Virus record (IMG/VR): IMGVR_UViG_3300028844_003505
Span: 1 to 60,730 of that record
Strand: one strand, 5' to 3'
Source: a virus
Taxonomy: Duplodnaviria; Caudoviricetes
Length of the DNA stretch: 60,730 bases
How positions within the stretch are numbered: the stretch's first letter is position 1; the number at the start of each line of letters is the position of its first letter. Made by a program: the position numbers and the translations under genes. Of the stretch, positions 45,102 through 59,616 are shown piece after piece. A model generated the notes under the pieces. The model was given only the letters and a program-made list of their open reading frames with translations, was not told where the DNA came from and did no database searches.

Positions 45102-45402
45102 AATCAAGATAGAATTTTCTTTTGGTTGAAGTCCACAAAAAATCGGGGTTTGTATAATGATCCTAAAATCCCAAATCAATATGCATATAATGAGATGATA
45201 TAGAAGTAATAATAGAAGGTATACAGGCTATGGGGCTAATAACCTGAAAGAATGGTGATGACCTTTCTTTAAAGCCCCAAAAATTCGGTATAAATTTTAC
45301 AGGCCGGGGAGTCAGTATCGCCGGGTGGGTCGGGTAGCTTGGGGGCTACCAAAGGTTTTCTGGTTTATCCTTGGGCAAGAAAAACCAGACAAAAATTTTT
45401 AT

Positions 45403-45559: not shown

Positions 45560-45635
45560 TGTAGTGTAGTATAATCGGTATTGCGCCTGTCTGTTAAACA
45601 GTAAGATGTAGGTTCGAGTCCTACCACTACAGCCA
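45560..45635 (+). tRNA. tRNA-Asn(GTT)
   Basis: Cloverleaf, U1-A72, G73, encoded CCA. Confidence 0.93.
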
Positions 45636-45639
45636 ATAT

Positions 45640-45715
45640 GTACCTGTAGCTCAGTTGGTAGAGCGTTTGTCTGTTAAACAAATGGTCGTAGGTTCAAGTC
45701 CTACCGGGTACTCCA
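45640..45715 (+). tRNA. tRNA with GTT anticodon (Asn) and atypical acceptor
   Basis: Cloverleaf; G1-C72, U73, CCA. Confidence 0.88.
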
Positions 45716-45846
45716 AAAGAGAAATAATATGGAACAAGAAATAAAAAAATTCTTCGACAAAACATTGGTTCCAGCTTTAGAAAATATGACCAAAGAAGAA
45801 TTGTTAAAATTGGATTGGTTTACAATAGAGGTTCCAGATAATAATG

Positions 45847-45930
45847 TCCGAAGTGGGATGAGAGATGATAACACCGTCCGTTAGGTAGCACCTACACACG
45901 CTAGGGGTAGTGTCCTAGCCTTCGGAATCA
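45847..45930 (+). ncRNA. Degenerate cloverleaf tRNA mimic
   Basis: TCCGAAG/CTTCGGA closing stem + ATCA end; three inner hairpins, the middle one with a 3-nt loop. Confidence 0.5.
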
Positions 45931-46028
45931 TTTTTTTATAAGAGTATATTACGAACAATTGGAAAGATGAATGGGTTGGTATTGAAAAAACACTTGACAA
46001 ATAATTTATATATGATAGGATATAAATC

Positions 46029-46514
46029 ATGAAAACTATAAACGAAACATTGGAATTTATCAAAGAAGCCCACAAAGGTCAAATTGACAAATCGGGTATT
46101 GAATACTGGAAACATCCACTACAAGTTATGTTGTTACTTCCTCCGAATGCTACTATTACCGAACAATATGTAGCATTACTTCATGATGTTTTAGAAGATA
46201 CGGAGTATACAGAAAAAGATTTGCTTAATCTTGGATACACACAACAAATTGTCGATGCAGTAAAATTAGTTTCGAGAGATAAAAATCAAACTTATAATGA
46301 ATTTATCAATAGTATTATTGATAGTAATAACATAACCGCAATAGTAGTTAAAATTACTGATATGGTTCATAATATGTCAGAAGAAAGATTTGAAAAGTTA
46401 TCTGAAGAAAATAAGATAAAACAAAATGAAATCAATGAAAAAAGATATAAACCAAATATGAAAAAATTAGCTAATAAATTAGTAGAACTTGTCAAGTTAG
46501 GAATAAAATTATAA
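46029..46514 (+). CDS. HD-domain (p)ppGpp-hydrolase-like protein (small alarmone hydrolase/Mesh1-like)
   Basis: AHKGQ.DKSG..Y..HP, ALLHDVLEDT, VKITDMVHN motifs. Confidence 0.85.
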   Translation: MKTINETLEFIKEAHKGQIDKSGIEYWKHPLQVMLLLPPNATITEQYVALLHDVLEDTEYTEKDLLNLGYTQQIVDAVKLVSRDKNQTYNEFINSIIDSNNITAIVVKITDMVHNMSEERFEKLSEENKIKQNEINEKRYKPNMKKLANKLVELVKLGIKL

Positions 46515-46518
46515 TTTT

Positions 46519-46593
46519 CCCTCTATAGTGTAATGGACAACACAGGAGTTTTCTACACTTTTAATTCGGGTTCGAATCCTGATAGGGGGTCCA
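46519..46593 (+). tRNA. tRNA-Arg(TCT)
   Basis: Cloverleaf with CCA. Confidence 0.9.
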
Positions 46594-46603
46594 AAAATAA
46601 AAT

Positions 46604-46668
46604 GGTAGAGTTCCCCGGAGGGGGGGATATAGTACTGTAGGTGGTTCGATCCCATCACTCTATCGCCA
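46604..46668 (+). ncRNA. 65-nt tRNA mimic without a normal anticodon arm
   Basis: 8-bp acceptor GGTAGAGT/ACTCTATC + GCCA; T arm GGTGG-TTCGATC-CCATC. Confidence 0.65.
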
Positions 46669-46676
46669 AATATCAT

Positions 46677-46891
46677 GCGAGATTAGTAGGAGTGACCATA
46701 CTAGTTAAACGGATACTTCTACTGTCACGCACCACATATCATGTGCCAAGGTTTTTTGTAATCATTTTATACTAGTTACGGATGTTGAGAAATACTTGGC
46801 ACACCAAATATCATGAGGGGTTCTTGTCTAACTCATACTAGTTAAACGGATGAAGACGGATTAAGATGGTTAATAGCCAGAACCCTCACCA
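46677..46891 (+). ncRNA. Array of three CCA-tailed hairpin RNAs (46677-46734, 46743-46806, 46815-46891)
   Basis: Each preceded by ATATCAT, closed by a terminal stem, ends ACCA and carries ATACTAGTTA(AA)CGGAT. Confidence 0.7.
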
Positions 46892-46893
46892 AA

Positions 46894-46992
46894 TTTTGAG
46901 TTATATCTAAAACAGGATTGCATGGGTGGCATCTGTGTAAGCGGGTTGACGTTGGGCCTAAGCCAAGGCGAGCAACTATTTATAACTCAAAA
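46894..46992 (+). ncRNA. Structured three-way-junction RNA candidate
   Basis: TTTTGAGTTATA/TATAACTCAAAA closing stem enclosing two GC-richer hairpins. Confidence 0.5.
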
Positions 46993-47006
46993 ACAATTTT
47001 TTACAT

Positions 47007-47081
47007 GGTCCTATCGTTTAGTGGTTAGGACTCTTGATTGTCGATCAAGTAGCCGGAGTTCGATTCTCCGTAGGACCGCCA
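47007..47081 (+). tRNA. tRNA-Asp(GTC)
   Basis: Cloverleaf, G73, CCA. Confidence 0.93.
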
Positions 47082-47102
47082 TTTATTATATAAAGGAATT
47101 AT

Positions 47103-47345
47103 ATGTTTTATCCAATTAAGGTTTATTCAGGGAAAGAATTAGAAGATTATACAAAAGAATCTGGTGATATTATGTCTTCTAAAGTTAGGAAAAATAAAAA
47201 AGGTAAAATAATTTCTCCTAAGCAACTGGATAAAGAATATTGGAACGAATTTGAAAAACAAGAAAAAATATTAAAGGATTTGTCAGTTGGTGTTGTTGAT
47301 GTAAAACAACCAGCCGTTCCTTATAATGATGTGTATTACGAATAA
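47103..47345 (+). CDS. Hypothetical protein
   Basis: ORF with AAGGA RBS between tRNAs. Confidence 0.55.
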   Translation: MFYPIKVYSGKELEDYTKESGDIMSSKVRKNKKGKIISPKQLDKEYWNEFEKQEKILKDLSVGVVDVKQPAVPYNDVYYE

Positions 47346-47354
47346 AATTATTAA

Positions 47355-47430
47355 GCCTTCATAGCTCCAATGGTAGAGCAGGAACTTTGTAAGTTCATGG
47401 TTGGGAGTTCGAATCTCTCTGAAGGCTCCA
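47355..47430 (+). tRNA. tRNA-Thr(TGT)
   Basis: Cloverleaf, CCA. Confidence 0.92.
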
Positions 47431-47678
47431 TTTTTTATCAAAAAGGAATATATATGCAAAATTATAATATAGCTACAACAACCAAAATGTGTACGATGAT
47501 TATTGCAGATTATAATGAACATATGAAACGAAGTATTCCAGAAGTACAAGAACAGTTTCCAGAAATGGATGACAAAGAAATTTTATATTTACTATTACAA
47601 AAATCGATGGAAATATTTGAACAAAACGATTGTCTTTGGAATTAATAATAGAATAAACTCAATAGAGAAGGTTCGATC

Positions 47679-47714
47679 ATGACACAATTTAACACATACA
47701 AACACAAACCATAG
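47679..47714 (+). promoter_or_regulatory. Leader peptide MTQFNTYKHKP upstream of tRNA-Lys
   Basis: AGAGAAGG upstream; two AAA codons; its 3' end is complementary to the tRNA-Lys 5' end. Confidence 0.45.
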
Positions 47715-47761
47715 CCTGTACACCATGCGCCTTGCGTATACGTGTACATGCGTATTAACGT

Positions 47762-47838
47762 GGGCTGTTGGTGTCAATGGTTAGCACATCCGACTTTTAA
47801 TCGGTAAGGTGTAGGTTCGAATCCTATACGGCCTACCA
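47762..47838 (+). tRNA. tRNA-Lys(TTT)
   Basis: Cloverleaf, CCA. Confidence 0.93.
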
Positions 47839-47879
47839 ATTTTTTTGTTGACAAAGAATAAAAATGAGGTTATATTGTT

Positions 47880-48170
47880 ATGGACAAATTAAAAATAGAA
47901 TCTGATGGTGAAAAAAAAGATATTCTTCGAGGAAGATCATTTAAAACATATTGCTTCAATTGTGAATATATAATTAAAGCATCTGAATATAGGGGAAGAG
48001 TTCATTTATGTTCTATAGTAGGTCTTACTTCATATGTTGGAACATATGCAGAGATGCAACCATGTTCGGATGTTAATCTTCATGGGGATTGTGAAGAATA
48101 TAAGCAAGTAAAAATACCAGAAGCAAAACCGGGATTCATCGATACTGTTATACAATGGTTTAAAGAATGA
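47880..48170 (+). CDS. Cys-rich hypothetical protein
   Basis: CFNC..C..C..N.HGDC; own promoter at 47848. Confidence 0.6.
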   Translation: MDKLKIESDGEKKDILRGRSFKTYCFNCEYIIKASEYRGRVHLCSIVGLTSYVGTYAEMQPCSDVNLHGDCEEYKQVKIPEAKPGFIDTVIQWFKE

Positions 48171-48246
48171 GAAGATTGTGGTTAATAATAGTTATCATAA
48201 TTATCTCGATAATAATGTTACTTAAAAATTTATAGGAGAATATGAT

Positions 48247-48723
48247 ATGAATACATCTGAAACACCAACAAAAGACAACGTACTAAGGAGAACCATCCAT
48301 CTACGAGAAAGACTTAATGGCGTAGTCCAACCGACAGGTGGCGCAACGGTTACTTGTGATTACGACAAAGATACCAAACAACTCAGGTTTGCAGTTGCTT
48401 TGTGTTCGACCAAAGATGGGTTTTGTAAGAAAAAAGGTCGATTAATCTCACAAGGAAGACTGGTTACTGGGTTTGTTGCTGATGATCCATATACAATGAT
48501 CGCCGGACATCGGTTTGTTTTTCGTGCTACTGTTCCTGAAAATGTTAGGTTTGTAAATGTTATTTATGATACTATTCAGGATGTATTGAAAAATGATAAA
48601 TGGATCAAAGAACCAGATGTAAGCAATCTGGAAGATATTGCGTATCTTTGCGAAGATACTATCCATTACACAACACAGAAATATACAGAAGAAAATCTAT
48701 TGACACAGCCAATAGATTATTAA
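48247..48723 (+). CDS. Phage hypothetical protein
   Basis: GGATV..AVALCSTKDGFCKKKGR motif; AGGAG RBS. Confidence 0.65.
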   Translation: MNTSETPTKDNVLRRTIHLRERLNGVVQPTGGATVTCDYDKDTKQLRFAVALCSTKDGFCKKKGRLISQGRLVTGFVADDPYTMIAGHRFVFRATVPENVRFVNVIYDTIQDVLKNDKWIKEPDVSNLEDIAYLCEDTIHYTTQKYTEENLLTQPIDY

Positions 48724-48729
48724 AAACTA

Positions 48730-48808
48730 TGCGAGTTCGCCTAGTCTGGTCTAAGGCATCTGTTTCATACGCAGATTAACGTTGGTTCAAATCCAACACT
48801 CGCAACCA
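48730..48808 (+). tRNA. tRNA-CAT (Met; fMet/Ile2 not excluded)
   Basis: Cloverleaf, CAT anticodon, CCA. Confidence 0.88.
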
Positions 48809-48814
48809 AAATAT

Positions 48815-48974
48815 GAGAGAGTGTGTATCGGTTTATACTATGGGAGTGGAGAAAGTTCTGTTAGTAATAGTCACTTATAAGGTTACTAATGTAGTGTTCA
48901 TAATCCCGCAAGATATTGATAGCATGTTATTATATATCAGCCGTTAGCGAATATCCAACAATACACATTCTCCC
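48815..48974 (+). ncRNA. ~160-nt multibranch structured RNA candidate
   Basis: GAGAGAGTGTGTAT/ATACACATTCTCCC closing stem; inner TTAGTAAT/GTTACTAA and CCGTTAGCGG hairpins. Confidence 0.55.
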
Positions 48975-48982
48975 TTTTTAAT

Positions 48983-49057
48983 GGTGGATATAGTTCAAGT
49001 AGAACGGTTCGGTTGTGACCCGGATTGTTGTGGGTTCAAGTCCCATTATTCACCCCA
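48983..49057 (+). tRNA. tRNA-His(GTG)
   Basis: G-1:C73 pair, GTG anticodon, CCA; short D loop. Confidence 0.88.
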
Positions 49058-49093
49058 ATTAATTTAATAACTTAAACCTTTGAGGATTTTATT

Positions 49094-50245
49094 ATGAGCG
49101 AAAATGAAACCATTACAAAAAAGTTTGTACCAACAAATCACAATGTACTGAAAACGGATAATGATAATCATATCGTTGCCAAAAATATTAGCAGTACGGT
49201 AGAACTTAATTCATCATTTCATGAGATGGATGTCTATGGTATTATCAACATGAGATCGTTGAAAAATTTTGATGATTTCTTGAAAGAGTTTCCAAGTAAA
49301 GAGTTTACTGCAAACTTCGATGATTCTTTCAATCTGAAATTGGATTATACTTCGGTTTATAATATTGTAAAGAATTTTGGAGAACTGGCATTATATCAAA
49401 ATCGGTATTACTCGAAATATAAAAATTGTTTGTGTTTGTTTAATATAGATGCTGATTCTAAGAAAACTCAGTTTTCGTATGATATTTATGGTCATGATAT
49501 GACTGAAGTTTTGTCGGTTGCAAACGAGTTTTATAAATCTATCGAAACTTATATTTTTGATGAAAACCATATCAATCTTAAATGGTTGTATATGGACGAA
49601 AATAAACAGTCGAGAGATCATGATGTACAAGTAAAGTATGACGATGTTGTGTTGGCAGAAGCATATCCATTTATTGAAAACTTCTCCAACTACATCGATA
49701 ACTATTTGAATAGTGAAGAAACTATTCTGGTATTGCAGGGAGAACCGGGAACTGGTAAGACTCGATTGATTCGACAGTTGTTAACGGCAATGTCTAAGTT
49801 CCACAATGGTAATAAATATTTTGGATTCACAACATCACCAGAGTTGATTGACAAAGAAACTTTTTACATGCAGTTTTTGTTAAGTGATGGTTATGGTGGA
49901 ATGGTTCTTGAAGATTCTGATACCAGTATTACTTCAAGAAAAAAAATCAGCGAGAACACAACGATCAGTAAAATGTTATTTGCTTCTGATGGATTTATTC
50001 CGCATAATAAGAAAATTATTTTGAGTACAAATCTTGATGTAACAGACATCGATGATGCGATTACTCGAAGTGGACGATGTTATGATTTTGTAAAGACTCG
50101 AAAATTGAGTCCAACCGAAATCAGAACTTTCATGGATGCATACAACAAGAAATTTAATTTGAGTGTCGAGATTCGAGAATTTCATCAAGATGCTCCGTTG
50201 TGTGATGTTTATAAAGCAATAAAGAATACAACAGAAAAGAAATAA
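49094..50245 (+). CDS. AAA+ ATPase
   Basis: GEPGTGKT, VLEDSD, ILSTN, DDAITRSGRC motifs. Confidence 0.85.
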   Translation: MSENETITKKFVPTNHNVLKTDNDNHIVAKNISSTVELNSSFHEMDVYGIINMRSLKNFDDFLKEFPSKEFTANFDDSFNLKLDYTSVYNIVKNFGELALYQNRYYSKYKNCLCLFNIDADSKKTQFSYDIYGHDMTEVLSVANEFYKSIETYIFDENHINLKWLYMDENKQSRDHDVQVKYDDVVLAEAYPFIENFSNYIDNYLNSEETILVLQGEPGTGKTRLIRQLLTAMSKFHNGNKYFGFTTSPELIDKETFYMQFLLSDGYGGMVLEDSDTSITSRKKISENTTISKMLFASDGFIPHNKKIILSTNLDVTDIDDAITRSGRCYDFVKTRKLSPTEIRTFMDAYNKKFNLSVEIREFHQDAPLCDVYKAIKNTTEKK

Positions 50246-50252
50246 GTTTAAT

Positions 50253-50330
50253 CGGAGTGTAGCACAGTCTGGTCAGCGCACATGCTTTGGGAGCATGGGG
50301 TCGTAGGTTCGAATCCTACCACTCCGACCA
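50253..50330 (+). tRNA. tRNA-Pro(TGG)
   Basis: Cloverleaf, C1-G72, CCA. Confidence 0.95.
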
Positions 50331-50346
50331 AATTAATTTAGAAAGT

Positions 50347-50421
50347 CTGGAATGTAGGTGTTGAATCCTACCATCAAAATAGAGTTATGGATGTTTCGAT
50401 GTAGTTTAAGAAAAACACCAG
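50347..50421 (+). ncRNA. Circularly permuted tRNA-like RNA 3
   Basis: CTGG / T arm GTAGG-TGTTGAAT-CCTAC / CATC...GATG closed acceptor / TA-GTTT-AAGAA-AAAC / CCAG. Confidence 0.6.
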
Positions 50422-50436
50422 CTTAGAATTAAAAGA

Positions 50437-50536
50437 GCCGAGAGTATGGGTTCGAATCCCATTATGTAATTAAAGTGTATGCCTATCCATAACTATTTAT
50501 ATATTTATCATATAGTTTAATTGGTAGAACATCGGC
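50437..50536 (+). ncRNA. Circularly permuted tRNA-like RNA 4
   Basis: GCCGA / ATGGG-TTCGAAT-CCCAT / TATG...CATA closed acceptor / TAGTTTAATTGGTAGAACA / TCGGC. Confidence 0.75.
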
Positions 50537-50602
50537 GTTTACCTTTCGCTAGGGTGTAGTGTAACAGAACATAAACAATTATTTAAGTTAGGGGGTCTAA
50601 CT

Positions 50603-51733
50603 ATGAATAAATTTAAAGCACCAGAAGAAGCATCTAACATATATATAGACCATGTTAGCAAAAAAGCAAAGTTTGATTATTTGATTTATATTGGAAGATT
50701 TCAACCATTTCATAATGGACACAAGAAAGTAGTTGAAACTGGTTGTGCTATTTCAGATAAAGTGATTATATTGTGTGGTTCGTGTAATGTTCCTAGAACT
50801 ATTAAGAATCCATTTATATTTGAAGAACGAAAGAATTATATAGAGAAAACATTCGAGCATACTGAATATAAAGATCAGGTTATTATTAGAGGTCTTAATG
50901 ATATGGCATCTAATTCCGAATGGATAATTCAAGTCCAAAATATAATTAATGCATTGACAGAAGCTAATATCTCTGAAAATGTAAAGATTGGAATTATTGG
51001 ACATATGAAAGATGAATCATCTTGGTATCTGGAAAAATTGAATCTAGAATTTATTGAAGTTGGTATTTACAAAGACAGTACAAATATTGCAAATAAAAAA
51101 GTAGATTCTACTGATATTAGGAATCATATTTTTACAAATGAGCAGTACGAGTATAAAAATATAATTTCTGATGCAATGCAATATTGGCTTGAAGATTGGA
51201 AACGAGAAAAATGGGATGTGTATGAACATCTTCAAAAAGAGTATAAATTCAATAAAGAATATAAAAAGCAATGGGAAGGTTCTCCATTCCCTGTTCAATT
51301 TGTAACTGTTGATGCAGTAGTAGTTCAAAATGGACATATTCTTCTAATACAAAGAAAAACACAACCGGGTAAAGATTTATGGGCATTGCCGGGTGGGTTT
51401 TTAAATGAAGATGAAACATTACGTGAAGGAGTTTTACGAGAACTTAAAGAAGAAACACAATTAAAAGTTCCATCTAAGATTTTAGCAACACATATTCAAA
51501 ATCAAAATTCAATAGCTTTTGATAATCCACATAGATCGTTGAGGGGTAGAACAATTACTCACGTATTTGTTTTTAACTTACAACCTGATCCAGAAACTGG
51601 ATTATCTAATATCAAAGGCTCCGATGATGCGAAAGATGCTAAATGGGTTCCTTTGAACGAGTTCGACAAGATGGCAAAGGAAATGTTTGAAGATCATTAT
51701 TTTATTGCCGAGCATTTTATTAAACAATTATAA
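50603..51733 (+). CDS. nadM: Bifunctional NMN adenylyltransferase / Nudix ADP-ribose pyrophosphatase (NadM-Nudix, NatV-like)
   Basis: IGRFQPFHNGH, STDIR, ALPGGF..ETL..GVLRELKEET, GSDDAKDAKW motifs. Confidence 0.95.
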   Translation: MNKFKAPEEASNIYIDHVSKKAKFDYLIYIGRFQPFHNGHKKVVETGCAISDKVIILCGSCNVPRTIKNPFIFEERKNYIEKTFEHTEYKDQVIIRGLNDMASNSEWIIQVQNIINALTEANISENVKIGIIGHMKDESSWYLEKLNLEFIEVGIYKDSTNIANKKVDSTDIRNHIFTNEQYEYKNIISDAMQYWLEDWKREKWDVYEHLQKEYKFNKEYKKQWEGSPFPVQFVTVDAVVVQNGHILLIQRKTQPGKDLWALPGGFLNEDETLREGVLRELKEETQLKVPSKILATHIQNQNSIAFDNPHRSLRGRTITHVFVFNLQPDPETGLSNIKGSDDAKDAKWVPLNEFDKMAKEMFEDHYFIAEHFIKQL

Positions 51734-51770
51734 TTACAATATTAATAACTTATTTTAAGGGGGTCTTAAA

Positions 51771-53204
51771 ATGAATAAACGAAATATTATTTTAAATACT
51801 GATAGTTATAAACTTAGTCACTATAAACAATATCCAAAAGACACACAAACGATTTACTCTTATATTGAAAGTCGTGGTGGTCGATTTGATAAAACATTAT
51901 TCTTTGGTTTGCAAATGTTTATTAAAGAATATTTACAGAAACCGATCACCGCAGTAGATATTCTTGAAGCAAAAGATGTTGCAGAAAAACATGGTCTTTC
52001 CTTTAATGAGGAAGGATGGAATTACATTCTTAAAGAACATGGTGGCAAACTACCATTAAAAATCAGAGCAGTTAATGAAGGTGTTCTTGTTCCAGTATCT
52101 AATGTGATGGTGACGATGGAAAATACTGATCCGAAATGTTTTTGGCTAACTAACTATATCGAAACAGCACTGTTGCGAGCAATTTGGTATCCAACCACAG
52201 TAGCTACACAGAGTTATGAGATAAAGAAAATGATTTATAAATACTTAGAGGAAACTTCTGATGATCCAGATACAGAGATTGGTTTCAAATTACATGATTT
52301 TGGTGCAAGGGGAGTATCTAGCTTTGAGTCTGCTGGTATTGGTGGACTTGCACATCTTATAAATTTTATGGGTACAGATACGCTTACGGCTCTCCTGTAC
52401 GCCCGTGAATATTATAATGAAGATATGGCGGGATTTTCTTGTAACGCATCCGAACATTCTACTATTACTGCATGGGGTCGTAAGTTCGAGCGAGAAGCAT
52501 ACGAGAATATGATAAATCAGTATGGTGGCGAGGGTAAGATGTTTGCTTGTGTATCTGATTCTTATGATATCTATAATGCAGTAAACAATATTTGGGGAAA
52601 TCAACTAAAAGAAAAGGTTATTAATAATGGTGCTAGATTAATTATCAGACCTGATTCTGGAGTTCCAGAAAAAGTTGTTCCGCAAATTTTAAAAGACCTT
52701 ATGAACCATTTTGGTTCTACCAAAAATTCTAAAGGATATTTGGTATTGCCGGATTATGTTCGAGTTATTCAAGGTGATGGAATTAATTTTGATTCTATTA
52801 AACGTATTCTTGAAAAACTAAAAGAATGTGGAATTAGTGCCGACAACGTTGCGTTTGGTATGGGTGGAGCATTGTTGCAACAGTTAGACAGAGATACACA
52901 ACAATTTGCAATGAAATGTTCTGCTATCTTGAGAGATAATAAATGGGAAGATGTTTACAAAGAACCAGTGACTGATGCTGGTATGTCTTTTCAGAAAAAA
53001 TCTAAGCCGGGAAGATTGACTCTGATTTGGGATAATGTCAAGAAAAAACACAGAACAGAAAGATATCCATTAGCACACCAACCTTGGCAAGCAGGACCAG
53101 CTAATGAATGGTCTCATATGGAAGTAATGCATACTGTTTTTGAAAATGGAAAACTAGTTGCAGAATCTTCTTTGAAAGATATTCGTAGTAGAGTTAAATT
53201 ATAA
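51771..53204 (+). CDS. nadV: Nicotinamide phosphoribosyltransferase
   Basis: TDSYKLSH, LHDFGARG, ASEHS, VSDSYD, IRPDSG, IQGDG, FGMGGALLQ motifs. Confidence 0.96.
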   Translation: MNKRNIILNTDSYKLSHYKQYPKDTQTIYSYIESRGGRFDKTLFFGLQMFIKEYLQKPITAVDILEAKDVAEKHGLSFNEEGWNYILKEHGGKLPLKIRAVNEGVLVPVSNVMVTMENTDPKCFWLTNYIETALLRAIWYPTTVATQSYEIKKMIYKYLEETSDDPDTEIGFKLHDFGARGVSSFESAGIGGLAHLINFMGTDTLTALLYAREYYNEDMAGFSCNASEHSTITAWGRKFEREAYENMINQYGGEGKMFACVSDSYDIYNAVNNIWGNQLKEKVINNGARLIIRPDSGVPEKVVPQILKDLMNHFGSTKNSKGYLVLPDYVRVIQGDGINFDSIKRILEKLKECGISADNVAFGMGGALLQQLDRDTQQFAMKCSAILRDNKWEDVYKEPVTDAGMSFQKKSKPGRLTLIWDNVKKKHRTERYPLAHQPWQAGPANEWSHMEVMHTVFENGKLVAESSLKDIRSRVKL

Positions 53205-53227
53205 ATAATAATCTTGGATGGCGTTTT

Positions 53228-53314
53228 ATGAAAAAAAATCTATTTGTGAAGGATAATATCAAATCAGAGATATACGGGAGCATGAAATATGCTCCCGTAG
53301 CTCAATGGCAGTAG
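53228..53314 (+). promoter_or_regulatory. Leader ORF reading into tRNA-Ile(UAU) with an anti-acceptor hairpin
   Basis: MKKNLFVKDNIKSEIYGSMKYAPVAQWQ; ATA codon at 53270 directly precedes TACGGGAGCAT, which pairs with ATGCTCCCGTA. Confidence 0.5.
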
Positions 53315-53362
53315 CGGTCTCCTTATAAGAGATTGACGTAGGTTCGAATCCTACCGGGAGCA
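53291..53362 (+). tRNA. tRNA-Ile(TAT)
   Basis: Cloverleaf, loop CT-TAT-AA, A73; CCA not encoded. Confidence 0.85.
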
Positions 53363-53397
53363 TAATTTATGCTCATAAAATTTAAAGGGGTATAATT

Positions 53398-53856
53398 ATG
53401 ATTGATAAATTTGAAGGTGATTATAGATTTTTATCTAATTTTTGGGAGTGTCCTATTCTTTGGAATGGTGTTACATATAAATCAGCAGAACATTTTTATC
53501 AAGCTAGAAAAGCAATAACACCAGAAGATCACGAAAAAATTCGTAATGCTTCAGTCTCTGAATGCAAACGAATTGGTAATAGAATAGATATTCGTGATGA
53601 TTGGGATAGTATTAAAATTCGTGTCATGGATGATGTTGTGTTTTTAAAGTTTACACAGAACAAAGATTTACAAATAAAACTCATGAAAACATTTCCTTCT
53701 CGATTAGTTGAAGGTAATACATGGCATGATAATTTTTGGGGAAATTGTACTTGTAAAAAATGCAGTAAACAATTTGGAAAGAATTATTTAGGACAAACTC
53801 TAGAACATTGGAGACAAATGTTTATTGTGGATATGATAGAAAAATTGGGGTCGTAG
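53398..53856 (+). CDS. NADAR family ADP-ribosylhydrolase (YbiA-like)
   Basis: FLSNF, SAEHFYQARK, LKFTQN, LVEGNTWHDNFWG, GKNYLG motifs. Confidence 0.92.
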   Translation: MIDKFEGDYRFLSNFWECPILWNGVTYKSAEHFYQARKAITPEDHEKIRNASVSECKRIGNRIDIRDDWDSIKIRVMDDVVFLKFTQNKDLQIKLMKTFPSRLVEGNTWHDNFWGNCTCKKCSKQFGKNYLGQTLEHWRQMFIVDMIEKLGS

Positions 53857-53923
53857 CTAAATTGGGAAAGCACCTGCTTTGCACGTAGAAGATGTGAGAG
53901 TTCGAATCTCTCCGACTCCACCA
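53847..53923 (+). tRNA. tRNA-Ala(TGC)
   Basis: G3:U70, TGC anticodon, ACCA. Confidence 0.93.
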
Positions 53924-53984
53924 AATTATTTAATAAGAAAGTATCGAAATTGATATTTATTAATTTAAACGAAAGTGAATACGT

Positions 53985-54629
53985 ATGAAAAAAAATTATA
54001 GTAAACTTGTTTACATCATGGATCGATCTGGTTCTATGCATGGATTGACTGAAAAATCTGTAGAAGGATTTAATTCTTTTGTTCAAGATCAAAAGAAAAT
54101 TGAAGGAACCGCAGATTTAACTCTTGCAATTTTTGATACTGAATATGAAACAGTATTTGAAGATGTAGATATTAAATCTGTTCATCCAATCACGGAAAAA
54201 GATATTTATGCAAGAGGTATGACAGCATTGTTGGATGCTATTGGTAGAACAATCGATTCTGTAGGATCAAAGATAGATAAACTTGGGGAAAATCAAAAAC
54301 CAGAACATGTTGTAGTTGTGGTTATGACAGATGGACACGAAAATTCCTCACAAGAATACAATAGAGAACAAATTAAAAAGTTGATTACCCAACAGGAAGA
54401 TGTTTATAATTGGAATTTTCTATTCATGGGAGCAAATCAAGACTCATTTGCTACTGGTGGTGGTCTAGGATTTAAGAGCGGAAATATTTCAAATTTTGAC
54501 GCATCTATTCAAGGAGCCGCAACTGCATATTCAACAACTTCAAATTTTGTTGGTAATCTTCGATGTAAGGTAGAAAATAAATCTTTGTCAGATACATACA
54601 AAGACGAAGAAGAAAAATTATCAAAATAA
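53985..54629 (+). CDS. vWA-domain protein
   Basis: DRSGSM, TALLDAIG, MTDGHENSS, FLFMGANQD motifs. Confidence 0.9.
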   Translation: MKKNYSKLVYIMDRSGSMHGLTEKSVEGFNSFVQDQKKIEGTADLTLAIFDTEYETVFEDVDIKSVHPITEKDIYARGMTALLDAIGRTIDSVGSKIDKLGENQKPEHVVVVVMTDGHENSSQEYNREQIKKLITQQEDVYNWNFLFMGANQDSFATGGGLGFKSGNISNFDASIQGAATAYSTTSNFVGNLRCKVENKSLSDTYKDEEEKLSK

Positions 54630-54634
54630 CTTGT

Positions 54635-54708
54635 AGGGAATTAGTATAATGGTAGTACGTTTCTTTTACATGGAAAATGCGGGGGTTCGATACCCTCATT
54701 CCCTACCA
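54635..54708 (+). tRNA. tRNA-Val(TAC)
   Basis: Cloverleaf, ACCA. Confidence 0.9.
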
Positions 54709-54787
54709 TTTTGATGTGGAAAAATATAAAATAATATCTTGACGTATCAATGAAGTTGTGTTACACTGTATTATAACAATCAAACAA

Positions 54788-54862
54788 GCGGGTATAGTTC
54801 AATTGGTAGAACTACTGCCTTCCAAGCAGAAGACATCGGTTCGATTCCGGTTATCCGCTCCA
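54788..54862 (+). tRNA. tRNA-Gly(TCC)
   Basis: GCG acceptor start, U73, CCA; promoter TTGACG-17-TACACT at 54739. Confidence 0.93.
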
Positions 54863-55041
54863 TATAACTGTCAGGAGACTAATTATGGTAAATGATTTAG
54901 ATACAATACACACCAAAAAAATTAATTCTGGTCTTATGGTTCATGTTAACGGACACCCATTGAGTGTAGAAGAAGAAAAGAAGTTGAAAAAATGTATTAA
55001 GAAATCAAGAAAATCATTGAATATAAAGAAGTAGATATTAT

Positions 55042-55102
55042 GCCTTGAAGCTATTTATAATTTCATACATGTCGGTATGGATGGAATAGTGGATAGGCTC
55101 CA
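55042..55102 (+). ncRNA. CCA-tailed hairpin RNA, divergent member of the ATAC...GGAT family
   Basis: GCCT/AGGC + TCCA end; apical TTTCATAC-ATGTCG-GTATGGATG. Confidence 0.45.
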
Positions 55103-55110
55103 AATAACTT

Positions 55111-55186
55111 TCCAAGGTAGCTTACATGGTGAAAGCATTCGGTTGAAGCCCGATAGAGGTGGGATCGTTACCTACCCTTGGAACCA
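55111..55186 (+). tRNA. tRNA-Phe(GAA) with atypical T loop
   Basis: Cloverleaf, ACCA; T loop ATCGTTA. Confidence 0.82.
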
Positions 55187-55217
55187 AATTTATTATTAAT
55201 TTTTTAATCATGGAGAA

Positions 55218-55976
55218 ATGATTATGCCAAAATTACATGAAATTCTAGCAGTAGAAGGATCGGTACAGGGAGCATCAAAGGATATTATCAAGGAAACTGA
55301 AAATACCTTTACCAACAAATCCACACATTTTCGTGGTGGTGTTAAACAGTATGTTCCTTTCTCTGAAGATGAAAAGGAATCCGAAGCATATCAAGAGTCA
55401 ACCGAAATGGTAACTTCGGTAGACAAGAAACTCGAACATTTTTGGGGAGTAGTTTCTAATGAATTGGATGTTACCTTCCAAAAAGAATGTACCAATCAGG
55501 AAGCGGTTGCTGATATTATTGTGGAAGGAAAAACTTTAAAAACAGGAGTTCCTGTTGGATTCTTGCTTGGTCTCGAAGCTAAGATCAAAGAATGGCGAAG
55601 AGTTCTTAAAGCAATTCCAACTCTACAACCGGGTGTAAAATGGGAACGAGATGTAGACCGGGGAGAAGATGTTTGGACTACAACACCTGATCCGGCGTTT
55701 CGAACACGTAAAGAAGTTCGATTCAAAGTTATGGTTCCTCCAACGGAAAAACATCCTGCCCAACTTGAGAAATGGAACGAGCAAGTTAATTGTGGTAAAT
55801 TCAATACAACCATTTGGTCTGGTGAGTATTCTACCGCACAAAAAGCAGAATTGCTAACTCGTTTGGATAGACTCGAACATGGTGTTAAACAAGCACGTAA
55901 TAGAGCCAATTCAATCGAAGTAAAAGATTTAGAAATTTCAGATGAATTAAGAAATTATTTAATCAGAGGTATTTAA
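55218..55976 (+). CDS. Conserved helical protein of unknown function (DUF7873-like, from recollection)
   Basis: KLHEILAVE, VPVGFLLGLE, IPTLQP..W, PPTEKHPAQ, WSG, AR.RAN motifs. Confidence 0.6.
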   Translation: MIMPKLHEILAVEGSVQGASKDIIKETENTFTNKSTHFRGGVKQYVPFSEDEKESEAYQESTEMVTSVDKKLEHFWGVVSNELDVTFQKECTNQEAVADIIVEGKTLKTGVPVGFLLGLEAKIKEWRRVLKAIPTLQPGVKWERDVDRGEDVWTTTPDPAFRTRKEVRFKVMVPPTEKHPAQLEKWNEQVNCGKFNTTIWSGEYSTAQKAELLTRLDRLEHGVKQARNRANSIEVKDLEISDELRNYLIRGI

Positions 55977-56070
55977 TTTTGTGGTGCAATTTTATTATTA
56001 TTATTAGCGACAACATATCATTATCGTTATAATATTAGCCACCAAATTTATTGTAAATCTTCTATATATA

Positions 56071-56179
56071 GTATGTTGCAGACCCTTAAACATTAAGGAA
56101 TGGGTTCGAATCCCATCCCAGCCTCCAAAATTATCATGGCTGGGTAGTTTAATGGCAGAACGTAATGGTATTAGCATAC
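56071..56179 (+). ncRNA. Circularly permuted tRNA with internal CCA (RNA 5)
   Basis: CATTA / ATGGG-TTCGAAT-CCCAT / CCCAGCC-TCCA / spacer AAATTATCAT / GGCTGGG-TA-GTTTAATGGCAGAAC-G / TAATG. Confidence 0.8.
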
Positions 56180-56211
56180 ACGGGACTGTTAAGAGAATTA
56201 TGTAGAATACA

Positions 56212-56281
56212 AACAGTCGCCCAACTGGTTAGGGCAATAGTTATTGAAAACTATCGGTTGCGGGTTCGATTCCCGCCTGTT
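56212..56281 (+). ncRNA. tRNA-like element with 5-bp acceptor, non-7-nt anticodon loop and no CCA
   Basis: Good D arm GCCC-AACTGGTTA-GGGC and T arm GCGGG-TTCGATT-CCCGC. Confidence 0.65.
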
Positions 56282-56292
56282 AAAACAACTTT

Positions 56293-56328
56293 GGGGAGTC
56301 GGCAAGGATATGTCGGCTCCCTTCTTTT
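56293..56328 (+). terminator. Intrinsic terminator
   Basis: GGGAGTCGGCA...TGTCGGCTCCC-TTCTTTT. Confidence 0.75.
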
Positions 56329-56342
56329 ATATTTAAAAAATT

Positions 56343-56546
56343 ATGAATGAATATTGGCAATTTCCAAAACCGGATATACTAAAACGAATTGGATTTCCAT
56401 GCTCCTTTTGTAGCAGTAATCATGAAGACGATGGTGTATACATCATAGCGGGTCCGGGTGTTTATATATGTAGTGAGTGTGTGGAACTGTGTAACGAAGT
56501 ATTGGCAGAACAAAATAAAAAATCACATAATGCGGTAGGATTTTAA
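56343..56546 (+). CDS. Stand-alone ClpX C4 zinc-binding domain
   Basis: CSFC...[21 protein letters not shown]. Confidence 0.88.
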
Positions 56547-56547
56547 A

Positions 56548-57126
56548 ATGAGTGTACGATTAGACAAATTTTTAGTAATTGATCTTGAAGCTACTTGTTG
56601 GGAAGATGGTGTTGCTCCAAATGGAAAACTTCAAAAAGAAGAATCTGAAATTATTGAAATAGGAGTATGTGAAGTATTTAAATTGGATAATAAATACCAT
56701 ACCGGAAGATTGCAAAGTTATTATGTAAAACCAACAAAACATATTATAAGTGATTATTGTGAAGAATTAACAGGTATATCAGAATCACTATTGGAAGATA
56801 AAGGAACTACTTTAGATAGAGCATTGCATAACTTCAATAAAGATTTCGCCCCAAAATATAAACCATATATGGCATGGGGAAATTATGATAAGAAACAAAT
56901 CTTAAAGGAATGTGAAGAAAAGCAGATACTTAATAGGTATAAATTTTCAGATACATATCTAAATATAAAGAATTTGTTTTCATTAAAATATGGATTAGAT
57001 AAAGAAATTAGATTGAGTAAAGCATTAGAACTTGCAGGTATGGAATTTATTGGAAATGCTCATAGTGGAAAAGATGATGCACACAATACAGCTAGAATTT
57101 TATTGAAACTTATTAACCCTCTATAG
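56548..57126 (+). CDS. DEDDh 3'-5' exonuclease (ERI1/KapD-like)
   Basis: VIDLEATC, EIIEIG, ELTGI, WGNYD, HSGKDDA motifs. Confidence 0.9.
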   Translation: MSVRLDKFLVIDLEATCWEDGVAPNGKLQKEESEIIEIGVCEVFKLDNKYHTGRLQSYYVKPTKHIISDYCEELTGISESLLEDKGTTLDRALHNFNKDFAPKYKPYMAWGNYDKKQILKECEEKQILNRYKFSDTYLNIKNLFSLKYGLDKEIRLSKALELAGMEFIGNAHSGKDDAHNTARILLKLINPL

Positions 57127-57190
57127 TGTAATGGATGCATACGACTCTTCGAAAGTCTTGGTCAGGGTTCGAATCCTTGTGGGGGGTCCA
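57117..57190 (+). tRNA. tRNA-Arg(TCG)
   Basis: Cloverleaf, CCA; 5' end shared with tRNA-Arg(TCT). Confidence 0.88.
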
Positions 57191-57209
57191 AATAAAGATG
57201 GGATAAATT

Positions 57210-57629
57210 ATGAATATGATATCTGAAAAAATCAATAAATGGCATGTTGAAAATTGTGAAATATTAGAACCAGAAACATCAAATTTTTTGGAAATATTAG
57301 AACAGGATGTCAGCGAACTCAAAACGGTTGAAAGTAATAAAGCTGAGTTAGCTAATTTAATTGTTGAACATCAAAGAGAGATATCTGGATGGGAAGAAGA
57401 AGTATCCTCATATAAGTCTTCATATTATGATTTGAAAGAGTGTATAGAAACTTTGACAGATGATATCATACACGAGGTATCAAACATAAAACAAACGATA
57501 ATTGATGAATATTTATATGATTTGAAAGACGTTGATAAAAAAACATATATAGAAGAAAAGTTACGATTGTACGAAAATAACATTGATAATCATATATGGA
57601 AATTTAATAGCAACAATTATCATTTTTAA
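57210..57629 (+). CDS. Coiled-coil hypothetical protein
   Basis: ORF track. Confidence 0.55.
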   Translation: MNMISEKINKWHVENCEILEPETSNFLEILEQDVSELKTVESNKAELANLIVEHQREISGWEEEVSSYKSSYYDLKECIETLTDDIIHEVSNIKQTIIDEYLYDLKDVDKKTYIEEKLRLYENNIDNHIWKFNSNNYHF

Positions 57630-57631
57630 AC

Positions 57632-57706
57632 GGGTCGATAGTGTAACGGTAACATGACAGTCTCCAAAACTGTTCGATGTGGGTTCGAATCCTACTCTAC
57701 CCGCCA
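57632..57706 (+). tRNA. tRNA-Trp(CCA)
   Basis: Cloverleaf, G73, CCA. Confidence 0.9.
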
Positions 57707-57721
57707 AAAATAAATACATAC

Positions 57722-57796
57722 AGGGGATTGGTGTAACGGTTATCACGTTTGGTTTTGGTCCAGAAGATACGAGTTCGATTCTTGTATCCCCTTCCA
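57722..57796 (+). tRNA. tRNA-Gln(TTG)
   Basis: Cloverleaf, CCA. Confidence 0.88.
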
Positions 57797-57819
57797 CCTT
57801 TAAATAGGAGTGAGTAAAA

Positions 57820-58119
57820 ATGAGTAAAATACACAAGTACGATCAATATACACAATTAAGAAAAGATCAAAAAGCAGAGTTTGTTAATAATCAATTAATA
57901 AATATAATTGATGATATCGAAAGAAATTTACTACTATATCAAGAAAAAGTGGATGAAGTAAAATCAAAAAAAGAAATGTTAAAAAAGGTTTTAGAAAGTG
58001 ATGATGTAGATGAAATTTTTCATTATATTAGTAATAACTGTAATAATCATAGTAGAGGATATGATATTGACGAACAGTGGAGAATTTTTCAAGATAAAAC
58101 AAAACTAAATAGAGGATAA
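57820..58119 (+). CDS. Hypothetical protein
   Basis: AGGAG RBS. Confidence 0.6.
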   Translation: MSKIHKYDQYTQLRKDQKAEFVNNQLINIIDDIERNLLLYQEKVDEVKSKKEMLKKVLESDDVDEIFHYISNNCNNHSRGYDIDEQWRIFQDKTKLNRG

Positions 58120-58124
58120 ATATT

Positions 58125-58559: not shown

Positions 58560-58584
58560 CAAAAGTTCTTTAAGAAGGGATGGT

Positions 58585-59241: not shown

Positions 59242-59247
59242 ATTATA

Positions 59248-59478: not shown

Positions 59479-59489
59479 AGGAAAGTAAG

Positions 59490-59552
59490 ATGGACGACTA
59501 TTATTATAGAGAAAATCACATAACTAATAAGGTGAGTTGCATGAATGGTTAA
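59490..59552 (+). promoter_or_regulatory. Leader ORF MDDYYYRENHITNKVSCMNG reading into tRNA-Tyr
   Basis: AAGGAAAG RBS; TAT-TAT-TAT; stop codon lies in the tRNA D arm. Confidence 0.5.
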
Positions 59553-59616
59553 ATGACCCGGTTGTAACCCGGAGGTACGGACACCGTTATAGGTTCGAAT
59601 CCTATGCTCACCACCA
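59531..59616 (+). tRNA. tRNA-Tyr(GTA)
   Basis: Class II cloverleaf with long variable arm, ACCA. Confidence 0.9.

What the first reader, a model, noticed from the sequence alone, without database searches (positions are those of the whole stretch)
46669..46891. Array of CCA-tailed hairpin RNAs displaying a conserved ATACTAGTTA(AA)CGGAT motif
Seen: three consecutive units, each with an ATATCAT leader, a terminal stem (GCG/CGC, GTGCCAAG/CTTGGCAC, GAGGG..TTCT/AGAACCCTC), an ACCA end and the same apical motif, while stem sequences are unrelated. That pattern suggests selection on structure plus loop. A fourth divergent unit lies at 55042-55102. Known: T4 carries CCA-ended stable RNAs of unknown function in its tRNA cluster, and ANGGA motifs are bound by CsrA/RsmA. 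Inference: tRNA-processing signals are reused to release small protein-binding decoys (CsrA sponge, antitoxin mimic or nuclease decoy).
Basis: partly seen in the sequence, partly recalled or inferred. Interest (0 to 1): 0.8.

Follow-up and report, generated by a model that had tools for sequence, protein, structure and literature searches.

The report
CCA-tailed hairpin RNA trio in phage
An uncultured marine T4-like phage carries, inside its tRNA operon, three back-to-back genes for small hairpin RNAs that end like tRNAs and share one 15-17-letter loop sequence, which suggests a purpose-built small RNA whose target is still unknown.

Summary
The core observation holds. At 46669-46891 there are three tandem units of 58, 64 and 77 nt. 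Each is preceded by NATATCAT, starts with G, closes into its own hairpin and ends in ACCA. Each carries ATACTAGTTA(AA)CGGAT near the tip. The stem arms are unrelated in sequence, yet each 5' arm pairs only with its own 3' arm. This pattern is best explained by selection on the ends, the fold and the loop. The units lie in a gene-free run between tRNA-Arg(UCU) and tRNA-Asp and are laid out like tRNA-tRNA junctions, as T4 rnaD and rnaC follow tRNA-Arg.

The "fourth unit" at 55042-55102 is another CCA-ended hairpin, not a family member.

I found no homologue in viral contigs, prokaryote genomes, Rfam or related phages. There is no antisense target in the window.

The CsrA idea fits only the loose ANGGAN rule.

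Best reading: tRNA-style processed small RNAs that display a ligand-binding loop, with the ligand unknown.

This scan has noted CCA-ended minihelices in other phages, but nothing that resembles this stretch.

The parts
46519..46593 (+). tRNA-Arg(UCU), first gene of the gene-free RNA run
   Evidence: ARAGORN; Rfam RF00005, 55.7 bits
46604..46668 (+). tRNA-like mini RNA with an acceptor stem, a T arm and a GCCA end but no anticodon arm; directly precedes unit 1
   Evidence: Sequence; weak tRNA-Sec match, 17.4 bits, E 0.85; fold
46669..46676 (+). 8-nt spacer/leader AATATCAT before unit 1; putative RNase P leader with U at -1
46677..46734 (+). Unit 1: 58-nt hairpin, GCG...CGC closing stem, ACCA end
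   Evidence: MFE -19.5 kcal/mol, z -4.11, 0 of 200 shuffles as good
46698..46714 (+). Loop motif copy 1, ATACTAGTTAAACGGAT
   Evidence: mean P(unpaired) 0.81
46735..46742 (+). 8-nt spacer/leader CATATCAT before unit 2
46743..46806 (+). Unit 2: 64-nt hairpin, 8-bp closing stem GTGCCAAG/CTTGGCAC, ACCA end
   Evidence: MFE -18.7 kcal/mol, z -3.63, 0 of 200 shuffles
46769..46783 (+). Loop motif copy 2, ATACTAGTTACGGAT (lacks the AA)
   Evidence: mean P(unpaired) 0.64
46807..46814 (+). 8-nt spacer/leader AATATCAT before unit 3
46815..46891 (+). Unit 3: 77-nt hairpin, closing stem GAGGG(G)TTCT/AGAACCCTC with one bulged G, ACCA end
   Evidence: MFE -19.9 kcal/mol, z -1.46, 21 of 200 shuffles as good
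46835..46851 (+). Loop motif copy 3, ATACTAGTTAAACGGAT
   Evidence: mean P(unpaired) 0.49
46856..46861 (+). Second ACGGAT in unit 3, 4 nt after the motif
   Evidence: Sequence
46893..47006 (+). 114-nt structured, more GC-rich spacer between unit 3 and tRNA-Asp; no CCA end
   Evidence: MFE -28.9 kcal/mol, z -2.25; no Rfam match at E <= 10
47007..47081 (+). tRNA-Asp(GUC), last gene of the run
55042..55102 (+).
   Evidence: Fold z -2.41; absent from profile hits

Best explanation
The three units are paralogous small-RNA genes embedded in a polycistronic tRNA transcript of a distant T4-like marine phage.

Inferred steps: the precursor is cut by host RNase P between U-1 and G+1 of each unit. The 3' side is trimmed back to the encoded ACCA, as for the neighbouring tRNAs. 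This releases stable hairpins of 58, 64 and 77 nt.

The ends and the closing helix serve only for maturation and stability. The working part is the shared, largely unpaired 15-17-nt apical element AUACUAGUUA(AA)CGGAU, shown three times on different stems. It most probably binds a trans factor, more likely a protein than an RNA, so the trio would act as a multivalent decoy or sponge.

Shown: the anatomy, the context and the paralogue conservation pattern. Inferred: the processing. Unknown: the ligand.
For: Context. All 20 ARAGORN tRNAs and all large ORFs lie on the + strand. The run 46519-47081 has no credible ORF, no terminator-like site and only chance-level promoter-like sites.

Layout. The layout matches tRNA junctions. 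18 of 20 tRNAs encode NCCA, and tRNA-tRNA spacers are 4-15 AU-rich nt, for example ATAT and AATATATTGT.

RNase P determinants. All 3 units have U-1, G+1:C72 and A73-CCA. PMC11143913 (passages) names U-1, the G+1/C+72 pair and the RCCA-RPR pairing as RNase P determinants. It also states that hairpin-loop model substrates, phage M3 RNA and phage C4 antisense RNA are cleaved.

Selection signature. The leader, motif and ACCA are identical across units. The arms are unrelated (6 of 6 comparisons not significant) but each is complementary only to its own partner.

Fold. Each unit folds on its own, also within the 563-nt precursor. z scores are -4.11, -3.63 and -1.46.

Independent sample. A contig from another sample and study covers 46657-46810 with 1 differing letter, so the sequence is not an assembly artefact.

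Precedent. T4 rnaD and rnaC directly follow tRNA-Arg(UCU), and rnaD has an encoded ACCA at its 3' end.
Against: No RNA data exist for this phage.

No homologue was found, so conservation rests on three paralogues in one genome. The 17-mer gave 0 matches in viral contigs. The degenerate motif gave 51 single-copy matches that look like chance. Six related large records (G001-G007 without G003; G003 was searched only for tRNAs) were at control level. Prokaryote genomes gave 2 chance-like matches.

U3 alone is not more stable than shuffles, and its motif is half paired. U1 has only 3 closing pairs before a mismatch.

No partner protein or RNA was identified. The distance from the CCA end to the loop differs between units, so a ligand that reads both ends at once is unlikely.
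Confidence: 0.4

Rival explanations
1. CsrA/RsmA sponge. The ACGGAU elements, one each in U1 and U2 and two in U3, bind and titrate a host CsrA-family regulator.
For: ACGGAU fits the ANGGAN loop rule for RsmE. CsrB-type RNAs carry repeated GGA sites in hairpin loops (PMC7652899, passages). The phage genes have GGAG/AGGA-type ribosome sites upstream of their starts, so the host probably uses Shine-Dalgarno sites.
Against: The ACA that was 100% conserved in the SELEX consensus RUACARGGAUGU is absent. High-affinity sites are hexaloops on stems of 4 bp or fewer, and pairing of the GGA lowers affinity. Here the GG is predicted paired in U1 and U2 and lies at the 3' edge of a 12-13-nt loop. CsrA does not explain the equally conserved 10 nt upstream, AUACUAGUUA. 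The host is unknown, and no CsrA gene is in the window.
Confidence: 0.1
2. Antisense regulators of the P1/P7 C4 type. These would be RNase P-matured hairpin RNAs whose loop pairs with a complementary site in a phage or host mRNA.
For: RNase P processes the phage-derived antisense C4 RNA (PMC11143913, passage). That C4 acts through loop sequences is recalled from memory, not seen in a call. A conserved unpaired loop on variable stems suits a seed sequence.
Against: No target lies in the 60.7 kb held. The longest perfect complement is 9 nt, and 259 of 300 shuffled motifs (long form) and 249 of 300 (short form) do as well or better. The best duplex is -14.5 kcal/mol, and 25 of 25 shuffles find an equal or better one; for the short form it is -16.4, with 13 of 25. 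Motif sub-words are not enriched at translation starts. Only about 33% of the genome is in the record, and the host is unknown.
Confidence: 0.12
3. Cis-acting processing or insulation modules. The hairpins would only space and protect the flanking tRNAs in the precursor and would have no function after release.
For: They are built from processing signals and lie between tRNAs. Another structured but CCA-less spacer follows at 46893-47006.
Against: A spacer role does not explain three identical copies of a 15-17-nt loop sequence on unrelated stems. It also does not explain why most other tRNA junctions in the island manage without such hairpins.
Confidence: 0.15
4. Decaying tRNA-derived relics. 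The motif would be the remains of a D arm (U8-A9-G10...A14...G18G19...A21) and the units would be dying pseudo-tRNAs.
For: A profile of the first 28 nt of 19 phage tRNAs aligns TAGTTAAACGGAT to positions 8-23 in U1 and U3. The island holds other tRNA-like fragments.
Against: Those alignments have E = 47 and 130 and rank 11th and 15th of 28 background hits, so they are not significant. There is no tRNA match at E <= 10. Neutral decay would not keep three blocks identical while randomising the arms and preserving their pairing. The motif starts at nt 22-27 of the units, not at nt 8.
Confidence: 0.08
5. DNA-level site. The ACTAGT palindrome with its flanks would be a protein-binding or nuclease site repeated three times.
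For: ACTAGT is a 6-bp palindrome. This genome avoids many palindromes (34 of 64 absent) yet keeps ACTAGT 13 times.
Against: The other 10 ACTAGT copies do not share the flanks. The palindrome is only 6 of the 15-17 conserved bases. The strict coupling to leader, stem and ACCA on the transcribed strand is an RNA signature. The motif has 0 copies on the reverse strand.
Confidence: 0.05

Closest known systems
Phage T4 stable RNAs rnaD (species 2) and rnaC (species 1)
   Same: Both are small non-tRNA RNAs in tandem inside the tRNA cluster of a T4-type phage, on the tRNA strand, directly after tRNA-Arg(UCU), with spacers of 1-6 nt. rnaD has an encoded ACCA at its 3' end. Their roles are unknown (PMC3014915 and PMC9697503, passages).
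   Different: There is no sequence similarity: the best blastn matches to the array region are 7-12 nt with E >= 0.86. The T4 RNAs are 119 and 139 nt, are not simple hairpins, are not paralogues of each other and share no loop motif. rnaC carries a T arm.
Hairpin-type RNase P substrates (acceptor/T-stem model hairpins, pre-4.5S RNA, phage M3 RNA)
   Same: A single helix closed by the 5' and 3' ends, a 5' leader, G+1:C72 and a 3' RCCA (PMC11143913, passages; features in the units).
   Different: The units have no T loop, and their stems are longer and interrupted. Cleavage was not tested. The details of M3 RNA are recalled from memory and were not seen in a call.
Phage P1/P7 C4 antisense RNA
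   Same: A phage regulatory RNA matured by RNase P. It is about the size of the units and acts through exposed loop sequences; both of these points are recalled from memory.
   Different: No complementary target was found here. There are three copies, on different stems.
CsrB/RsmZ-type CsrA-sequestering RNAs
   Same: Several hairpins that each show a GGA-containing element; ACGGAU fits ANGGAN.
   Different: There are only 4 sites. The GGA is not centred in a short hexaloop, the ACA is missing, and a further 10 conserved nt are unexplained. The units are tRNA-operon products rather than independent terminator-ended sRNA genes.
Type III antitoxin RNAs (ToxI-like tandem repeats)
   Same: Tandem RNA units cut out of one precursor, a strategy phages are known to copy (recalled from memory).
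   Different: ToxI-type units are near-identical repeats of about 34-45 nt (recalled from memory). Here the units are 58-77 nt with unrelated arms.

Membership tests
Canonical tRNA (Rfam RF00005) | Cloverleaf with D, anticodon and T arms, detectable by tRNA models | tested here: not met
   ARAGORN and Rfam and 21 tRNAs, none in 46669-46891. No tRNA-clan match to the units at E <= 10.
Canonical tRNA (Rfam RF00005) | Acceptor helix closed by the 5' and 3' ends, followed by a discriminator and CCA | tested here: met
   ACCA in 3 of 3 units. Closing helices of 3 bp (U1, then a mismatch), 8 bp (U2) and 9 bp with one bulge (U3).
Hairpin-type RNase P substrates | 5' leader with U at -1, a G+1:C72 pair and a 3' RCCA able to pair with the P15 loop | tested here: met
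   All 3 units read ...CAU|G...C-ACCA. Determinants as listed in PMC11143913.
Hairpin-type RNase P substrates | Actual cleavage at -1/+1 by RNase P | not testable with these tools
   Needs an enzyme assay or 5'-end mapping.
T4 rnaC/rnaD | Sequence or structure homology to rnaC or rnaD | tested here: not met
   blastn with word size 7 gave only 7-12-nt matches, E >= 0.86.
T4 rnaC/rnaD | Position in the tRNA cluster just downstream of tRNA-Arg(UCU), on the same strand | tested here: met
CsrA/RsmA-sequestering sRNA | Repeated A(N)GGA(N) elements | tested here: met
   ACGGAU occurs once in U1, once in U2 and twice in U3. Rule from PMC7652899.
CsrA/RsmA-sequestering sRNA | GGA unpaired in the loop (typically a hexaloop) of a short hairpin, with ACA upstream as in the SELEX consensus | tested here: not met
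   P(unpaired) of the GG is about 0 in U1 and low in U2. The loops are 12-13 nt and no ACA is present. This rests on predicted folds only.
CsrA/RsmA-sequestering sRNA | A CsrA-family protein in the host or the phage | tested here: inconclusive
   No PF02599 match in the 60.7-kb record, which is 33% of the genome. The host is unknown.
Type III antitoxin RNA (ToxI-like) | Near-identical tandem direct repeats | tested here: not met
   Arms unrelated in 6 of 6 comparisons.
Type III antitoxin RNA (ToxI-like) | Adjacent ToxN-like endoribonuclease gene or a known cognate toxin | not tested
   No ToxN search was run. Neighbouring ORFs gave HD_4 or no Pfam match.
C4-type antisense RNA | Complementary target site for the loop | tested here: not met
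   within the window only.

The most novel reading that the evidence does not exclude
The trio is a phage-made multivalent RNA decoy. The host's own tRNA-maturation enzymes cut three hairpins out of the tRNA transcript. Their common loop then soaks up a host RNA-binding regulator or defence protein, such as a CsrA-type protein or a factor that inspects tRNA-like RNAs. This would be an RNA counter-defence in an island that also carries NAD-rebuilding, NADAR, alarmone-hydrolase-like and RNase T-like genes.
Probability: 0.2. Interest if true: 0.8.

Novelty: new variant of a known kind. Interest (0 to 1): 0.5.

Why it matters
Small stable RNAs in phage tRNA clusters have been known since T4 species 1 and 2. 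Reviews still list their roles as unknown.

This trio is unusually easy to read. Three paralogues keep the processing ends, the fold and one loop sequence while everything else has been replaced. That pattern marks the loop as the working part and gives a direct experimental handle: the loop as bait, and loop mutants as controls.

If the loop binds a host factor, tRNA operons would be a delivery route for phage RNA decoys, and similar CCA-ended hairpins in other phages could be read the same way. If it binds nothing, the units are still a compact natural example of non-tRNA RNAs built on tRNA processing signals.

Tried and rejected
Homologue searches that found nothing useful:
- The exact 17-mer gave 0 matches in viral contigs.
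- The degenerate motif in viral contigs gave 51 single-copy loci. Several share one coding-like context, and none has a second copy or a CCA-closed hairpin by eye.
- The 17-mer in 596 Gb of prokaryote genomes gave 2 matches, neither in a CCA hairpin.
- Motif and whole-unit profiles were run over all 299 fetched loci (1,868,171 bases). The whole-unit profile gave 21 hits at E <= 10, all covering only the motif part. 19 of them lie in loci that had been fetched by the motif itself; the other two are L008 (E 0.79) and L136 (E 5.1).
- The motif with up to 2 mismatches gave 2 matches against 2 control matches in G001, and 6 against 5 control in five more large related records.

Searches for syntenic relatives through neighbouring proteins:
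- The HD protein alone gave 1 relative, at 51% identity.
- The 65%-identical homologue P0002 gave none.
- The DUF7873 protein gave none.
- The metagenome scan with the HD alignment used a pattern that was too general.
- The same alignment in viral contigs gave 80 loci. I scanned 14 of these 80 for tRNAs, and 0 of 14 had one within 3 kb, so an alarmone-hydrolase/tRNA-island link is not general.

The tRNA islands of G001 and G002 were fetched and scanned for CCA-closed hairpins. There are no tandem arrays and no shared loop motif.

My first CCA-stem scan, which required 6 bp, did not discriminate: 110 hits on the + strand against 159 on the - strand.

A RegA-operator mimic was considered because a RegA homologue lies at 23632-23997. 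Motif sub-words are not enriched at translation starts, and the similarity to the T4 SELEX consensus is weak.

A loop-to-loop link to AGTTATGGAT (50383) and its complement (50485) was considered. The 10-mer with up to 1 mismatch occurs at chance level, 10 matches against 10.9 expected.

ACUAGU self-pairing between loops is possible on paper but could not be tested.

Expression: no RNA holder was listed among the 6 sequencing runs. The laid contigs gave only sparse, near-identical DNA cover.

No covariance model was built, because three units of unequal length could not be aligned structurally by the alignment tool.

The literature searches found no paper describing this RNA.

Full report
What the window is. 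The window is a whole IMG/VR virus record of 60,730 bases, estimated 33% complete, with 29-35% G+C. It encodes a T4-type major head protein, DNA polymerase, helicases and an SbcC-like protein, and a RegA translational repressor homologue at 23632-23997 (E 2.5e-40). The polymerase is at most about 40% identical to those of cyanomyophages and Pelagibacter phage HTVC008M. Head-protein relatives in IMG/VR reach 53-63% identity. Near-identical DNA occurs in marine metagenome runs. It is therefore a distant, uncultured marine T4-like phage, and its host is unknown.

The tRNA island. From 45560 to 59701 the + strand carries 20 ARAGORN tRNAs, and Rfam finds 21 tRNA matches. Between them lie genes for an HD_4 (alarmone-hydrolase-like) protein, NADAR, an NMNAT-Nudix protein, NAMPT, an RNase T-like exonuclease and YqeY.

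The observation. Between tRNA-Arg(UCU) (46519-46593) and tRNA-Asp (47007-47081) there is no credible ORF, no terminator-like site, and only chance-level promoter-like sites: 15 found against 11.0 +/- 3.6 in shuffles. The run contains the following elements:
- a tRNA-like mini RNA at 46604-46668;
- unit U1 at 46677-46734 (58 nt);
- unit U2 at 46743-46806 (64 nt);
- unit U3 at 46815-46891 (77 nt);
- a 114-nt structured spacer at 46893-47006.
Each unit is preceded by an 8-nt spacer NATATCAT, starts with G and ends in ACCA. The junction CCANATATCATG occurs exactly three times in the window, all here. The motif ATACTAGTTA(N0-2)CGGAT occurs three times forward, never on the reverse strand and never in the backwards control.

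Fold. Each unit folds as its own hairpin, also when the whole 563-nt precursor is folded. z scores against 200 shuffles are -4.11, -3.63 and -1.46, with 0, 0 and 21 shuffles folding as well. The motif is mostly unpaired in U1 and U2 (mean 0.81 and 0.64) and half paired in U3 (0.49).

Is it more than a diverged tandem duplication? Outside the three shared blocks the arms are no more alike than shuffled sequence: in 6 of 6 comparisons the fraction of shuffles scoring at least as well was 0.19-1.0. Yet each 5' arm pairs strongly only with its own 3' arm, at -16.8, -17.4 and -16.5 kcal/mol against -4.0 to -11.4 for the six cross pairs. Neutral decay would not leave three blocks of 8, 15-17 and 4 nt identical while randomising the rest and preserving pairing. 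Selection on the ends, the fold and the loop is the economical reading. An independent sample from another study holds a contig covering 46657-46810 with one differing letter, so the array is not an assembly artefact.

The "fourth unit". 55042-55102 is a UCCA-ended hairpin, 8 nt before tRNA-Phe, with an ATATTAT leader. It lacks the motif. It does not appear among the 23 hits of a motif profile or the 29 hits of a whole-unit profile at E <= 1000, where the true units score E 1.3e-5 to 2.6e-3 and 1.3e-15 to 8.9e-11. It is another CCA-ended hairpin of the island, not a family member.

Why an RNA processed like a tRNA. 18 of 20 tRNAs in the island encode NCCA followed by A/U-rich sequence. Adjacent tRNAs are separated by 4-15-nt AU-rich spacers, such as ATAT and AATATATTGT. 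10 of 20 have U at -1. The units copy this layout exactly and add U-1, G+1:C72 and A73-CCA in all three. The JBC review of RNase P (PMC11143913, passages) names the A248/N-1 contact, the G+1/C+72 pair and the RCCA-RPR pairing as determinants. It states that hairpin-loop model substrates, pre-4.5S RNA, phage M3 RNA and the phage-derived antisense C4 RNA are RNase P substrates. Processing here is inferred, not shown.

Known families. Rfam gives no match to the units even at E <= 10; the only hit in 46590-47010 is a weak tRNA-Sec match on the mini RNA. T4 offers a positional parallel. In NC_000866, rnaD (119 nt) and rnaC (139 nt) directly follow tRNA-Arg(UCU) on the tRNA strand, and the DNA reads ...GCGCACCA at the rnaD 3' end. 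Their roles are still called unknown (PMC3014915 and PMC9697503, passages). There is no sequence similarity to the array.

Search for relatives. This failed throughout, and it is the main weakness of the case. The 17-mer gave 0 matches in 2.9 million viral contigs. The degenerate motif gave 51 single-copy, chance-like matches. There were 2 chance-like matches in 596 Gb of prokaryote genomes. Six large related records were at control level. No whole-unit profile hit appeared in 299 fetched loci. Neighbouring proteins have no close relatives: the HD protein has one at 51%, while P0002 and DUF7873 have none. The look-up of encoding contigs, which might have reached the three contigs on record for the identical HD protein (longest 68,674 bases), was closed. 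The tRNA islands of the two nearest records, G001 and G002, have no comparable array. Of the 80 phage loci with an HD_4 gene I scanned 14 for tRNAs, and none had one within 3 kb. The adjacency of that gene to the array is therefore not a conserved link.

What the loop might do, tested readings:
- CsrA. ACGGAU fits ANGGAN. However, the review of CsrA (PMC7652899, passages) reports the SELEX consensus RUACARGGAUGU with ACA and GGA invariant. It also reports GGA in hexaloops on short stems, and lower affinity when the loop is larger or the GGA is paired. Here ACA is absent, the loops are 12-13 nt, and the GG is predicted paired in U1 and U2. The 10 conserved nt upstream are unexplained. No CsrA gene is in the window.
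- Antisense. The longest perfect complement on the + strand is 9 nt, which 259 of 300 and 249 of 300 shuffled motifs equal or beat. The best duplex of the long motif, -14.5 kcal/mol, is equalled or beaten by 25 of 25 shuffles, and that of the short motif, -16.4, by 13 of 25. Only a third of the genome is held.
- RegA operator mimic. Motif sub-words are not enriched near translation starts.
- D-arm relic. A profile of tRNA 5' parts aligns the motif to positions 8-23, but at E 47 and 130, ranks 11 and 15 of 28.
- DNA site. ACTAGT occurs 13 times, the other 10 without the flanks.
- Self-pairing. The loop contains the self-complementary ACUAGU, so loop-loop pairing between units is possible. This could not be tested.

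Verdict. The three-unit array is real and carries a selection signature. It is best read as three paralogous small-RNA genes that use tRNA maturation signals to release hairpins showing a common loop. Because the distance from the CCA end to the loop differs between units, the ends and the loop most likely act separately: the ends for maturation and stability, the loop for binding. I put about 0.65-0.7 on "processed small RNAs" and 0.4 on the full statement that the loop is a trans-acting binding platform. CsrA specifically is at about 0.1. The array is a new variant of a known kind, the non-tRNA stable RNAs of phage tRNA clusters. Earlier notes of this scan report CCA-ended minihelices in other phage tRNA arrays (unchecked leads), but no stretch resembling this one was on record.

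Noticed in passing
window 46604-46668: A 65-nt tRNA-like RNA with an 8-bp acceptor-type stem, a good T arm (GGTGG-TTCGATC-CCATC) and a GCCA end, but a GC-rich hairpin in place of the D arm and no anticodon arm. Its only Rfam match is a weak tRNA-Sec hit (17.4 bits, E 0.85).
   Followed up: partly
window 46893-47006: A 114-nt, more GC-rich structured element closed by a 12-bp AU-rich stem, lying between unit 3 and tRNA-Asp. It has no CCA end and no Rfam match (MFE -28.9 kcal/mol, z -2.25).
   Followed up: partly
window 45273-45351: A 79-nt element closed by AGCCCC/GGGGCT and ending in ACCA, about 200 nt before the two tRNA-Asn genes. It is not called a tRNA by ARAGORN or Rfam.
   Followed up: no
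window 50331-50540: After tRNA-Pro there are T-arm-like and D-arm-like pieces in an unusual order. A D-arm profile hits 50510-50531 (E 0.13) and Rfam gives a borderline tRNA at 50395-50470. AGTTATGGAT at 50383 has its exact reverse complement at 50485.
   Followed up: partly
window 1-60730: Strong palindrome avoidance. 34 of 64 six-base palindromes are absent, against 9 of 48 composition-matched non-palindromes. AGATCT and CTTAAG each have 0 copies with 19.7 expected, and CGCG has 0 with 38 expected. This suggests pressure from many restriction systems.
   Followed up: partly
window 23632-23997: A RegA translational-repressor homologue (PF01818, 132.9 bits), as in the replication gene cluster of T4-type phages.
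   Followed up: partly
window 46029-58559: The tRNA island is interleaved with genes for an HD_4 alarmone-hydrolase-like protein, NMNAT-Nudix, NAMPT, NADAR, an RNase T-like exonuclease, YqeY, an AAA ATPase and DUF7873. Together they look like a counter-defence and tRNA-care gene set.
   Followed up: partly
window 56210-56284: ARAGORN calls a tRNA with an undetermined two-base anticodon ('tRNA-???'), and Rfam scores it 45.8 bits. It has no encoded CCA.
   Followed up: no
L298:15403-15440 (G001): A 38-nt perfect minihelix, CCTGGTGG...CCACCAGG, followed by ACCA, inside the tRNA island of the 273-kb related phage. It is unrelated in sequence to the trio.
   Followed up: no
L301 (T4 NC_000866 70908-71247): In T4 the two stable RNAs rnaD and rnaC follow tRNA-Arg(UCU) with spacers of 1 and 6 nt. 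This is the same relative position as the array here.
   Followed up: yes
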